4,832 bases of DNA, from IMG/VR virus record IMGVR_UViG_2698536435_000010; one strand, given 5' to 3'. Origin of the DNA: a virus. Its lineage: Duplodnaviria; Heunggongvirae; Uroviricota; Caudoviricetes. The position numbers and the translations under genes were made by a program. Below the pieces are notes generated by a model. That model saw only the letters and a list, made by a program, of their open reading frames with translations, was not told the origin of the DNA and did not search any database. Positions within the stretch are counted from its first letter, which is position 1, and every line of letters starts with the position of its first letter. This document shows, in pieces, positions 363-812 of this stretch.

Positions 363-386
363 ATGTTACCAATCTGTTAAAGGCTG

Positions 387-415
387 TTGACAAACAACCT
401 TGAGCATGACATAAT
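387..415 (+). promoter_or_regulatory. sigma70-like promoter: -35 TTGACA (387-392), 17-bp spacer, extended -10 TGaCATAAT (407-415)
   Basis: Perfect -35 hexamer, optimal 17-bp spacing, 5/6 match in the -10 hexamer with a TG at -15/-14. Predicted start near 421-424. AT-rich background raises the chance of a fortuitous match. Confidence 0.4.
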
Positions 416-427
416 TGTATATATGGG

Positions 428-456
428 GGAGAGCAATTCTCTCTTATTTTTTCTTT
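428..456 (+). terminator. short hairpin plus T-tract just downstream of the predicted promoter (attenuator or terminator-like)
   Basis: Stem gagag (429-433) / ctctc (439-443), loop caatt, then ttatttttttcttt. The reverse complement has no U-tract after the stem, so any terminator function is + strand only. Confidence 0.3.
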
Positions 457-584
457 CAATAATCCGATGAATGGATATTCTGAGTTGGAAAGGTGCAATG
501 CTTTTCGTCCTAGCCTTTCAGGTTGGTCTGAGAGGCTATCTCAAAAAGTCTTTGTTCATTCATTATTGAATCCTTTACAGCTTT

Positions 585-621
585 GCCCTAATCATGAGTT
601 AGGGCTTTCTTTAAGAGTTTT
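585..621 (+). terminator. hairpin plus T-rich tail (terminator-like), first copy of the repeated TTAGGGCTTT motif
   Basis: Stem gccctaa (585-591) / ttagggc (599-605), loop tcatgag, followed by tttctttaagagttttt. Confidence 0.3.
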
Positions 622-681
622 TAAACAGAGCTTTTAAAGAAAGTTTTCCTGAAACTTCGTTAACGTTATAAGCAAACCTCC

Positions 682-720
682 AAAGCCCTTCACAGATTAT
701 GTTTAGGGCTTTTCTTAATA
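682..720 (+). promoter_or_regulatory. second hairpin carrying the TTAGGGCTTTTCTT motif
   Basis: Stem aaagccct (682-689) / agggcttt (705-712) with a 15-nt loop, followed by tcttaata. The 3' arm and tail repeat the motif seen at 599-620. Confidence 0.25.
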
Positions 721-812
721 GAGCATCTTTAATAAATCGTTAAGTCATCTTCTAAGTGTATTGGCGTTGAAGGTGCTCTATTAAGAAATAACCACACTTA
801 GAGGAAATTATA

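What the first reader, a model, noticed from the sequence alone, without database searches (positions are those of the whole stretch)
363..812. 450-bp structured non-coding region: strong promoter followed by three hairpin/T-tract elements
This is a long gap for a phage-like module. It holds a near-consensus promoter (TTGACA, 17 bp, TGnCATAAT) and then three + strand hairpins with T-rich tails (428-456, 585-621, 682-720) before the Shine-Dalgarno of the 236-aa gene. That fits either a small RNA of roughly 170-300 nt or a long attenuator-controlled leader. The one ORF inside (467-637, 56 aa) has no ribosome-binding site.
Basis: seen in the sequence. Interest (0 to 1): 0.5.

Follow-up and report, generated by a model that had tools for sequence, protein, structure and literature searches.

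The report
Structured leader RNA before tail genes
The 450-base gap holds a strong, conserved promoter followed by about 390 bases that fold into a conserved series of RNA hairpins, including stop signals and a hairpin that can mask the next gene's ribosome-binding site. It sits in front of the tail genes of a small phage-like island carried by about 9% of complete E. coli genomes, and no RNA database or genome annotation records it.

Summary
Window 363-812 is a true non-coding gap. It holds a near-consensus extended -10 promoter (387-415) and a + strand RNA that folds much better than shuffles (z = -7.9; the - strand gives -4.2).

Homologous gaps occur in 477 of 5,426 complete E. coli genomes, always unannotated. 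I compared 108 distinct versions. Hairpins at 425-443, 510-537, 606-642 and 711-788 keep pairing through compensatory changes. Hairpin 487-505 keeps its sequence, and the stems of the two terminator-like hairpins (585-612, 683-717) barely vary.

This is a 23-bp hairpin (711-733/766-788) whose loop carries a 12-nt sequence (748-759) complementary to the Shine-Dalgarno region (794-805) of the 236-aa gene. That complementarity co-varies across three sequence classes.

Best reading: this is the promoter and about 390-nt regulatory leader of the tail-gene operon (236-aa gene, 69-aa gene, tape measure, Dit) of an 11-17 kb island integrated by a serine recombinase. Control would act through termination or read-through and through ribosome-site masking. 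Terminated products of about 190 and 295 nt may also act as small RNAs.

The factor that drives read-through is unknown. No Rfam family matches. I class it as a new member of a known kind, of moderate interest.

The parts
297..362 (+). Tiny hydrophobic ORF (MELVIICFVLIGMIAGASIKV). It overlaps the stop of the upstream gene, and its own stop marks the true left edge of the non-coding gap.
   Evidence: Sequence. It is present in two allelic forms in the homologues. It is not annotated in any RefSeq record looked at.
364..390 (+). Conserved block upstream of and overlapping the -35. It holds three direct repeats TGTT[AG]A (364-369, 375-380, 385-390) spaced 10-11 bp apart. Inferred to be a possible binding site for a transcription regulator.
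   Evidence: Sequence. The block is nearly invariant in 22 homologues. The second and third repeats are kept even in the most divergent copy, L135.
387..415 (+). Sigma-70 promoter with an extended -10: TTGACA, 17 nt, TG, then CATAAT. The predicted start is near 421-423.
   Evidence: 11/12 plus TG; 10 of 2,000 simulations reach this quality; conserved. The start site is inferred, not measured.
425..443 (+). Hairpin 1, at the predicted 5' end of the RNA (GGGAGAG / CTCTCTT). A T-rich tail (444-456) follows it in this version only. Most likely a 5'-end protective hairpin.
   Evidence: The 4-bp core is 99.5% paired with GC, GU and AU types. In L004 and L010 it is an exact reverse-complement flip, and the tail is not conserved.
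487..505 (+). Sequence-invariant hairpin GAAAGGU-(GCAAU)-GCUUUUC, preceded by a conserved CUGA. Candidate recognition site for a conserved factor.
   Evidence: It is invariant in the 22 sequences, which were gathered by BLAST or by protein match (the window plus 21 homologues), and in all 13 protein-ascertained IMG/VR contigs. In the one divergent copy fetched later, L135, both arms lose one base, one A-U becomes G.U, and the loop is kept.
510..537 (+). Hairpin 2: an 11-bp stem with a variable loop. The conserved single-stranded A-rich tract ATCTCAAAAAGT (537-548) follows it.
   Evidence: 9 consensus pairs are 99.9% paired in 98 sequences and 4 pairs change on both sides. It also ranks near the top of the unbiased helix screen.
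585..612 (+). T1: terminator-like hairpin GCCCTAAT/GTTAGGGC plus tail TTTCTTT. The predicted 3' end gives an RNA of about 190 nt.
   Evidence: It is 99.4% paired, with one compensatory A-T to C-G change. It is present in about 70% of versions and is absent, together with 606-680, from the rest.
606..642 (+). Hairpin H4, 16 bp. Its 5' arm is the U tract of T1.
   Evidence: 99.4% paired, 3 pairs change on both sides, and it has many G.U pairs that exist only on the + strand.
683..717 (+). T2: terminator-like hairpin AAGCCCT/AGGGCTT plus tail TTTTCTT. The predicted 3' end gives an RNA of about 295 nt.
   Evidence: The GGGC-plus-U-tail motif is present in 107 of 108 versions, but the tail is poor in 12. 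It is an exact reverse-complement flip in L011.
711..788 (+). S1: a 23-bp hairpin (711-733 with 766-788) with a 32-nt loop. Its 5' arm is the U tract of T2. It is long enough to be a plausible RNase III substrate (inference).
   Evidence: 23 contiguous pairs. In one search, 19 pairs are 95.8% paired and 11 change on both sides. For the whole structure tested (S1 plus the anti-SD:SD helix), the covariation score is 0.312 against at most 0.125 when partners are slid, with 0 of 500 shuffles as high.
748..759 (+). Anti-Shine-Dalgarno sequence TCTTCTAAGTGT in the loop of S1.
   Evidence: In all of the 30 commonest pairings listed, which together cover 102 of the 108 leaders, the best partner of the ribosome-site region lies here. 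Mean duplex energy over all 108 is -16.6 kcal/mol against -11.1 for shuffled sequences. There are three co-varying classes, and cognate pairs are better than swapped pairs.
794..815 (+). Shine-Dalgarno region ACACTTAGAGGA (794-805, core GAGG 801-804) and the ATG (813-815) of the 236-aa gene.
1779..1821 (+). T3: strong terminator-like hairpin (GGGGAGAG...CTCTCCC plus T7) between the 69-aa gene and the tape measure gene. It belongs to the same operon logic, and its stem resembles hairpin 1.
   Evidence: It is present in 87 of 95 homologous loci with variation in the inner stem. No promoter-like site lies between it and the tape measure start.

Best explanation
Window 363-812 is the promoter and about 390-nt structured 5' leader of the tail-gene operon of a small phage-like island integrated by a serine recombinase. 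The operon holds the 236-aa gene, the 69-aa gene, the tape measure gene and Dit.

Shown by sequence and comparison:
- A near-consensus extended -10 promoter is conserved.
- The + strand RNA forms a conserved chain of hairpins.
- One or two hairpins have the form of intrinsic terminators (T1, T2). A third (T3) lies before the tape measure gene.
- The last and largest hairpin (S1) carries in its loop a sequence complementary to the ribosome-binding site of the first gene, and the two co-vary.

Inferred:
- Transcription starts near 421-423.
- Hairpin 1 protects the 5' end.
- In the resting island most transcripts stop at T1 or T2, giving stable RNAs of about 190 and 295 nt.
- Expression of the tail genes needs read-through of T1, T2 and T3. 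An unidentified factor would drive this, possibly by acting on the sequence-invariant hairpin 487-505 or on the conserved promoter region.
- Translation of the 236-aa gene is additionally gated by the anti-Shine-Dalgarno pairing, by RNase III cutting of S1, or by both.

I am confident that this is a transcribed, structured regulatory leader. I am much less sure of the read-through mechanism.
For: Promoter: 11/12 plus TG, rare by chance, conserved.

Strand and fold:
- The + strand folds at z = -7.9 and the - strand at -4.2.
- G.U to A.C cells in the supported helices are 631:65.

Covariation:
- S1: 95.8% paired, with 11 of 19 pairs changed on both sides.
- Hairpins 1 and 2: 99.8% paired, against at most 66% when partners are slid.
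- H4 and T1: 99.4% paired.
- An unbiased screen of all column pairs returns these same helices at the top.

Linkage control: neighbouring modules of the leader are almost unlinked (adjusted mutual information 0.14 and 0.06, and about 0 with flanking DNA). The perfect match of hairpin arms is therefore not simple co-inheritance.

Ribosome-site masking.

Terminator-like motifs: present in 105 of 108 versions; T3 in 87 of 95 loci.

Not coding.

Conservation: 477 of 5,426 genomes. The gap is 92% identical in L007, where the downstream protein is only 56% identical. The whole architecture is kept in the most divergent copy, L135.

Context: tape measure and Dit genes lie downstream.

Precedent: a constitutive late promoter that ends at a nearby terminator and yields a small RNA is described for Stx phages (PMC7547250).
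Against: - No transcript data were available, so the start site, the 3' ends and any read-through are all inferred.
- T1 is absent from about 30% of versions. In 12 of 108 the only terminator-like hairpin has a poor U tract. Termination therefore cannot be essential everywhere.
- No antiterminator was identified. The island proteins tested match no Q, N or NusG family.
- There is no RfaH ops site and no Nus boxA within 2 mismatches at the invariant block.
- Hairpin variants show no association with any nearby gene variant.
- S1 is 4-20 kcal/mol more stable than the anti-SD:SD pairing. A 5-nt linker cannot span a 23-bp stem, so the masking cannot simply form in cis alongside S1.
- The covarying classes are few lineages rather than many independent events.
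Confidence: 0.6

Rival explanations
1. A stand-alone trans-acting small RNA gene (or two nested ones of about 190 and 295 nt). It would run from the promoter to T1 or T2, and its main role would be regulation of other genes. The conserved hairpin 487-505 or the A-rich tract 537-548 would serve as the functional site. This can coexist with the leader reading.
For: - Strong promoter.
- 5' hairpin and terminator-type 3' ends.
- Invariant internal sequence.
- The StxS precedent, in which a prematurely terminated late transcript is a functional Hfq-binding small RNA.
Against: - Conservation and covariation continue past T2 up to the ribosome-binding site (S1 and the anti-SD). A pure small RNA gene does not explain that.
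- The invariant block is mostly base-paired rather than exposed.
- No complementary target was found within the islands.
Confidence: 0.2
2. An antisense immunity-type circuit like P1 c4 or P4 CI. The S1 hairpin would be cut out of the leader and its loop would then pair in trans with the ribosome-binding site of the 236-aa gene, on the same or an incoming island, to hold the tail operon off.
For: - The anti-SD sits in the exposed loop of a very stable 23-29 bp hairpin, the classic design of an antisense RNA.
- It cannot pair in cis while S1 stands, because the linker is only 5 nt.
- The loop and target form three matched classes.
Against: - No Rfam C4 match or any other match.
- Classes 1 and 2 discriminate poorly: -13.5 to -13.9 for swapped pairs against -16.7 and -17.7 for cognate pairs.
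- Processing is unproven.
- No second target copy exists elsewhere in the island.
Confidence: 0.12
3. A DNA-level site, such as a packaging (cos or pac) site next to the HNH gene, a replication origin, or a recombination site, rather than an RNA.
For: - An HNH endonuclease gene lies two genes upstream in intact islands, the usual neighbourhood of cos sites.
- Some hairpins appear as exact reverse-complement flips, a DNA-level event.
- The 20-mer is sequence-invariant.
Against: - The strand asymmetry of G.U pairs is 631:65, and the + strand folds far better than the - strand.
- A promoter points into the region.
- The ribosome-site complementarity co-varies.
- A cos site copied from a helper phage should also be found in phage genomes. 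No phage or other viral contig carries the 20-mer or the region.
- No repeats typical of origins or terminase sites were found.
Confidence: 0.05
4. A small protein gene (ORF 467-637 or 471-569) with flanking signals, or a leader-peptide attenuator.
For: ORFs of 56 and 32 codons exist in this window. ORF 467-637 runs across T1.
Against: The frames are broken by insertions and deletions in homologues, 19 of 108 versions have no ORF of 30 codons or more, and no ribosome-binding site is present. There is no Pfam or PHROG match.
Confidence: 0.02

Closest known systems
Late-gene leader of lambda and Stx phages: promoter PR', terminator tR', 6S RNA or StxS, read through by the Q antiterminator
   Same: A strong, apparently unregulated promoter. 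Intrinsic terminator(s) lie 190-300 nt downstream and structural (late) genes lie beyond. The short terminated RNA could itself be functional, as with StxS (PMC7547250).
   Different: There is no sequence similarity to any phage. No Q gene was found in the island. The -10-like pause element just after the start is not consistent among variants (my reading). Lambda has no anti-SD hairpin in front of its first late gene. Here the terminators come with long hairpins that absorb their U tracts.
Lambda PL leader of gene N: nutL, then a large RNase III hairpin that occludes the N ribosome-binding site (from my own knowledge: Kameyama et al. 1991; Wilson et al. 2002)
   Same: The order of parts matches: promoter, a conserved recognition hairpin, a large perfect hairpin next to the ribosome-binding site, then the gene. 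Both involve masking of the ribosome-binding site by leader structure.
   Different: boxA is not matched (3 mismatches to YGCTCTTTA). The conserved hairpin has a 7-bp stem and a GCAAU loop, not a 5-bp boxB with a GNRNA loop. No N-like protein is known here. Terminators lie inside this leader.
P1/P7 c4 antisense RNA with icd-ant, and P4 CI RNA (immunity RNAs cut from the leader of the operon they control)
   Same: A structured RNA encoded upstream in the same transcript has a loop complementary to the ribosome-binding site of the downstream gene. It sits in a mobile element behind a constitutive-looking promoter.
   Different: No Rfam match. There is only one loop-target pair, and no repeated complementary boxes elsewhere in the island. 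Processing and trans action are unproven.
HK022 put RNAs (cis-acting RNA that makes RNA polymerase terminator-resistant without any protein)
   Same: Two adjacent stem-loops (487-505 and 510-537) lie early in a transcript and upstream of terminators.
   Different: No sequence or model match was available to test. This is resemblance in layout only, recalled from memory.
5'-terminal stabiliser hairpins (for example the ompA 5' UTR)
   Same: Hairpin 1 begins 0-4 nt from the predicted 5' end. Its stem is kept while the loop, the register and even the orientation change.
   Different: The start site has not been measured. In some variants a second hairpin is inserted ahead of it.

Membership tests
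Sigma-70 promoter with extended -10 | -35 and -10 hexamers, 16-18 nt spacing, TG one base upstream of the -10 | tested here: met
   TTGACA, 17 nt, TG-A-CATAAT; 11/12 matches. Such a site occurs in 10 of 2,000 simulations.
Sigma-70 promoter with extended -10 | Conserved in homologues | tested here: met
   TTGACA is invariant, and the -10 variants CATAAT, GATGAT, GAAGAT and TAAGAT keep A2 and T6.
Sigma-70 promoter with extended -10 | Measured transcription start | not testable with these tools
   This needs differential RNA-seq or 5' RACE. GSE143631 (O157 Sakai) is a candidate data set.
Intrinsic (Rho-independent) terminator | G+C-rich hairpin directly followed by a U-rich tract | tested here: met
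   T1 585-612 and T2 683-717. 75 of 108 versions have two such hairpins and 30 have one; 12 have a poor tail.
Intrinsic (Rho-independent) terminator | RNA 3' ends at the U tract in vivo | not testable with these tools
   This needs Term-seq or 3' RACE.
Translational operator by Shine-Dalgarno masking | An upstream sequence complementary to the ribosome-binding site, kept through co-variation | tested here: met
   748-759 pairs with 794-805 over 12 bp. It is the best partner of the SD region in every leader listed (102 of 108). Three matched classes exist, and cognate pairs beat swapped pairs. In register 82% of cells pair; class 3 is out of register in that alignment.
Translational operator by Shine-Dalgarno masking | The masking pairing is the favoured fold in cis | tested here: not met
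   The S1 fold is 4-20 kcal/mol more stable than the fold with the anti-SD:SD pairing enforced. The 5-nt linker is too short for a pseudoknot over 23 bp.
Q-type antitermination (lambda PR') | A Q protein gene in the element | tested here: not met
   No Q family matched any island protein tested against Pfam, PHROGs or NCBIfam. A helper-encoded Q cannot be excluded.
Q-type antitermination (lambda PR') | A -10-like pause element in the first transcribed bases | tested here: inconclusive
   The variants read TGTATATATG, TTTAATTATAG and GGTAATAG. Only some contain a hexamer with both A2 and T6.
N/Nus antitermination (nut site) | boxA consensus YGCTCTTTA | tested here: not met
   The invariant TGCTTTTCG (499-507) is not among the matches at up to 2 mismatches.
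N/Nus antitermination (nut site) | boxB: a 5-bp stem with a GNRNA pentaloop | tested here: not met
   The conserved hairpin has a 7-bp stem and a GCAAU loop.
RfaH-dependent operon leader | ops element GGCGGTAGNNTG | tested here: not met
   There is no match at up to 2 mismatches in 363-812.
Any curated RNA family (Rfam 15: C4, riboswitches, T-box, ribozymes, introns, small RNAs) | A covariance-model match | tested here: not met
   Only chance-level microRNA-like hits to the S1 hairpin at E of 2.5 to 4.9. Nothing in two whole islands at gathering score.
Protein-coding gene or leader peptide | An open reading frame kept among homologues | tested here: not met
cos or pac site shared with a helper phage | The same sequence present in phage genomes | tested here: not met
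   No phage record matches. All 13 IMG/VR contigs that carry the 20-mer are the island itself.

The most novel reading that the evidence does not exclude
The leader could be the control RNA of an undescribed family of E. coli and Shigella phage satellites that carry their own tape measure and Dit genes. In that reading, either the sequence-invariant hairpin 487-505 is a new kind of cis-acting RNA signal that lets RNA polymerase (with a host or helper-phage factor) read through three terminators, or the S1 loop is a c4-like antisense RNA that sets immunity between islands. Either would be a new RNA-based switch that links a satellite to its helper.
Probability: 0.15. Interest if true: 0.8.

Novelty: new member of a known kind. 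Interest (0 to 1): 0.55.

Why it matters
About one complete E. coli genome in eleven, including O157:H7 and Shigella, carries this island, and its central 450-base gap is left blank in every annotation I looked at. The gap holds one of the best-supported unannotated RNA structures one could hope to find in so well-studied a species. It has roughly 60 base pairs, almost no broken pairs across about 100 sequence variants, and a co-varying pairing with a ribosome-binding site.

It offers a defined entry point into how a poorly understood tail-gene island is kept silent and then switched on. It also shows that structured leaders can survive extreme fine-scale recombination. If the terminated products are abundant, they add candidate small RNAs to pathogenic E. 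coli.

Tried and rejected
- Rfam at a permissive E-value on the window and at gathering score on two whole islands found nothing relevant.
- There are no tRNA or tmRNA genes.
- Phage and plasmid collections have no homologue of the region, even at E up to 10.
- Pfam, PHROGs and NCBIfam give nothing for the 236-aa, 69-aa, 183-aa, 92-aa, 71-aa and 109-aa proteins. The RefSeq label 'transposase' on the 236-aa protein has no support.
- AlphaFold of the 236-aa protein, using a shallow alignment of homologues 87-95% identical, gave mean pLDDT 58. It is mostly helical with a long C-terminal helix. This is too poor for a fold search, so none was run.
- I searched three islands for a second copy or a complement of the invariant 20-mer and of the promoter, as P4-like seqA/B/C logic would predict. 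None was found.
- I tested whether hairpin variants travel with particular variants of nearby genes, which would point to a cognate binding protein. There was no association within +/-3 kb.
- A 14-nt core pattern scanned in IMG/VR to find divergent copies returned 120 random matches and no homologue.
- The protein-based scan of GTDB genomes gave only one locus.
- Literature searches for SpLE2, CP-933T, Esr41 and tail-encoding satellites gave no description of this RNA or island. My recollection that the O157 copy in yecE is 'SpLE2' or 'CP-933T' could not be verified.
- Neither an ops site nor a boxA site is present.
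Full report
**What the window is**

Bases 1-52 are the end of an IS1 element. From 53 onward the DNA is A+T-rich and phage-like. In order it holds:
- the 3' part of a small gene (82-297);
- a 21-codon hydrophobic ORF (297-362);
- the gap in question (363-812);
- a 236-aa gene (813-1523);
- a 69-aa gene (1546-1755);
- a strong terminator-like hairpin (1779-1821);
- a tape measure gene (from 1912, Pfam TMP_3). A 1.6-kb IS3-family element at 2471-4083 splits this gene.

Intact relatives in E. coli are islands of about 11-17 kb inserted inside yecE or mdtG. Their gene order is: small serine invertase; a variable stretch; an operon of unknown small proteins with an HNH endonuclease; the gap; the 236-aa and 69-aa genes; tape measure; a Dit-like tail protein; and a large serine recombinase on the opposite strand. 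The closest protein match to the window's 236-aa protein is from Shigella sonnei (95%).

**Checking the observation**

The promoter is as described: TTGACA (387-392), 17 nt, TG (407-408), CATAAT (410-415). It scores 11 of 12 plus TG and is the best site in the window. A site this good turns up in only 10 of 2,000 simulated sequences of the same composition.

The three hairpins exist, at 425-443, 585-605 and 683-711, each with a T-rich tail in this window. The number of terminator-like sites in the window is not in itself unusual (7 found, 4.5 +/- 2.0 expected).

The fold, however, is unusual. RNA 421-830 folds at -134.1 kcal/mol on the + strand (z = -7.9). Its complement folds at -99.9 kcal/mol (z = -4.2).

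**Conservation**

The 450 bases match 477 of 5,426 complete E. coli genomes at 70-96% identity. All matches are chromosomal, and none of the 60 listed rows has an annotated feature under the match. Phage and plasmid collections have no match.

The gap is often better conserved than its neighbours. In L007 it is 92% identical while the downstream protein is 56% identical.

An alignment of 22 copies, gathered by BLAST or by protein match, shows three things:
- The promoter is conserved, together with a block just upstream that holds TGTT[AG]A repeats.
- A 20-mer, GAAAGGTGCAATGCTTTTCG (487-506), is invariant.
- The remaining hairpins are kept as structures while their sequences change.

I used the 20-mer as a search pattern and fetched 13 viral and 99 metagenome stretches. 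This gave 108 distinct leaders of 320-519 nt. In those, the 20-mer is invariant by construction.

Independent checks on the 20-mer:
- It is invariant in the 22 sequences (the window plus 21 homologues gathered by BLAST or protein match).
- All 13 IMG/VR contigs found through the protein alone, with enough upstream sequence, carry it.
- The one exception, L135, was fetched later as the weakest BLAST hit. It keeps the same loop and loses one base from each arm, which is a compensated change.

**Structure and covariation**

An unbiased screen of all column pairs returned four helices at the top: 721-734/765-778, 425-433/437-444, 510-516/532-539 and 606-621/627-642.

| Element | Window coordinates | Pairing across homologues | Compensatory change |
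|---|---|---|---|
| Hairpin 1 core | 425-443 | 99.5% paired | 3 of 4 pairs change on both sides |
| Invariant hairpin | 487-505 | 100% paired | never varies in this set |
| Hairpin 2 | 510-537 | 99.9% paired | 4 of 9 pairs |
| T1 | 585-605 | 99.4% paired | 1 pair |
| H4 | 606-621/627-642 | 99.4% paired | 3 of 16 pairs |
| T2 | 683-711 | stem invariant | none |
| S1 | 711-733/766-788 | 95.8% paired | 11 of 19 pairs |

Controls:
- For the 5' set (hairpin 1, the invariant hairpin and hairpin 2), 99.8% of cells are paired, against at most 66% when partners are slid. The covariation score is 0.234 against at most 0.10.
- For the 3' structure tested as a whole (S1 plus the anti-SD:SD helix), the covariation score is 0.312 against at most 0.125 for slid partners, and 0 of 500 shuffles reach it.
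- S1 is 23 contiguous pairs in the window.
- G.U pairs outnumber A.C cells 631 to 65 in these helices, so the + strand is the one that pairs.

A caveat is that the variants fall into a few classes, so the number of independent events is small. Against simple co-inheritance, the modules of the leader are almost unlinked to each other. Adjusted mutual information is 0.14 between hairpins 1 and 2, 0.06 between hairpin 2 and S1, and about 0 with the flanking DNA. The two arms of every hairpin nevertheless always match.

**Ribosome-site masking**

The loop of S1 holds TCTTCTAAGTGT (748-759). It is complementary over 12 bp to ACACTTAGAGGA (794-805), which contains the Shine-Dalgarno GAGG.

In all of the 30 commonest pairings listed, which together cover 102 of the 108 leaders, the best duplex partner of the ribosome-site region lies in this loop. 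The mean energy over all 108 is -16.6 kcal/mol, against -11.1 for shuffled sites.

Three sequence classes exist:
- TCTTCTAAGTGT with ACACTTAGAGGA;
- TCTCTTCTAAGT with ACTTAGAAGAGG;
- TTCACCTCT with AGAGGTGAA.

Cognate pairs give -16.7, -17.7 and -14.9 kcal/mol. Swapped pairs give -9.8 to -13.9.

S1 itself is 4-20 kcal/mol more stable than a fold with this pairing enforced. Only 5 nt separate S1 from the target, which is too short to cross a 23-bp helix. The pairing must therefore act in one of three ways: when S1 is open, after S1 is cut (its length fits an RNase III substrate), or in trans. This step is inference.

**Terminators**

Hairpins with a GGGC 3' arm and a U-rich tail occur twice in 75 leaders and once in 30. 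In 12 leaders the only tail is poor.

T1 together with H4 looks like a duplicate of T2 together with S1. In both pairs the U tract of the terminator is the 5' arm of the next hairpin.

A third, stronger terminator-like hairpin lies between the 69-aa gene and the tape measure gene in 87 of 95 loci. No promoter-like site follows it.

Three terminator-like signals between a strong promoter and the tail genes is the layout of operons controlled by read-through. I could not find the factor:
- No Q, N or NusG-like protein is among the island proteins tested.
- There is no ops site.
- There is no boxA.
- No gene variant co-varies with any hairpin variant.

**Alternatives**

- Coding: rejected, because the ORFs are not conserved.
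- DNA-level site (cos, origin): disfavoured by the strand asymmetry, by the promoter, by the ribosome-site covariation, and by the absence of the sequence from every phage collection.
- Stand-alone small RNA: compatible with the 5' half and has a precedent in StxS. It does not explain S1 or the anti-SD.
- c4-like antisense circuit: compatible with the S1 design, but it has no database or experimental support.

**Verdict**

The feature is real, widespread and unannotated. It is best described as a new family of structured regulatory leader, and possibly also a source of small RNAs, in front of the tail genes of a little-known E. coli/Shigella island. The kind of element is known, but this family and its particular layout are not in Rfam 15. 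The mechanism beyond 'promoter, structured RNA, terminator-like hairpins, ribosome-site masking' remains a hypothesis that public RNA-seq data could test quickly.

Noticed in passing
window 1-52: The end of an IS1 element abuts the island and cuts off the 5' part of the gene that ends at 297. In intact islands this gene is about 108 codons long.
   Followed up: partly
window 2471-4083: A 1.6-kb IS3-family insertion sequence (orfA 2489-3016, orfB 3052-4047) splits the tape measure gene, with a roughly 4-bp overlap at the junctions against an intact copy. Together with the IS1 end, this shows the island in this genome is decayed although its leader is intact.
   Followed up: partly
window 297-362: A 21-codon hydrophobic ORF (MELVIICFVLIGMIAGASIKV) overlaps the stop of the upstream gene. 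A second allelic form (MGLIIAWTLLGLLVGCWVGNTVNKN) takes its place in other islands. It is unannotated everywhere I looked and may be a small membrane protein.
   Followed up: no
window 1779-1821: A strong terminator-like hairpin before the tape measure gene has nearly the same stem sequence (GGGGAGAG/CTCTCCC) as hairpin 1 of the leader (GGGAGAG/CTCTCTT). T1 and T2 likewise share a stem. Hairpin families are reused within the operon.
   Followed up: partly
L001 1782-18516; L002 1395-12589; L020 6120-19496: The host element is an 11-17 kb island inserted inside yecE or mdtG by a large serine recombinase. Tape measure and Dit are its only recognisable structural genes, alongside an HNH endonuclease and variable cargo. 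It is present in about 9% of complete E. coli genomes and may be an undescribed phage satellite. No paper describing it was found.
   Followed up: partly
108 leaders and their flanks (L001-L133): Mosaicism is extremely fine-scale. Variant classes of modules only about 80-250 nt apart are almost statistically independent, and they are independent of the flanking genes.
   Followed up: yes
window 466-474; for example L056 and L061 leaders: A (GATG)n microsatellite of 2-6 copies lies between hairpin 1 and the invariant hairpin. Many leaders also carry an optional 28-nt insert flanked by ATTCTGA repeats.
   Followed up: no
L004 and L010 (hairpin 1); L011 (T2): Some homologues carry the exact reverse complement of a whole hairpin in place of the usual one. 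These are small palindrome-mediated inversions that keep the structure.
   Followed up: partly
window 813-1523: RefSeq calls the 236-aa protein 'transposase' in many genomes, but it matches no Pfam, PHROG or NCBIfam family. The low-confidence model is mostly helical with a long C-terminal helix.
   Followed up: yes
L002 2469-3942; L020 8629-10102; L001 8319-10562: Each island has a further 1.5-2.2 kb stretch with no annotated gene, upstream of the early operon. Rfam found nothing there in L002 and L020.
   Followed up: partly
window 807-835, - strand: A promoter-like site (TTAATA, 17 nt, TATAAT; 10/12) points back into the leader. Its -10 is formed by the bases just before the ATG and is absent from most homologues.
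   Followed up: partly
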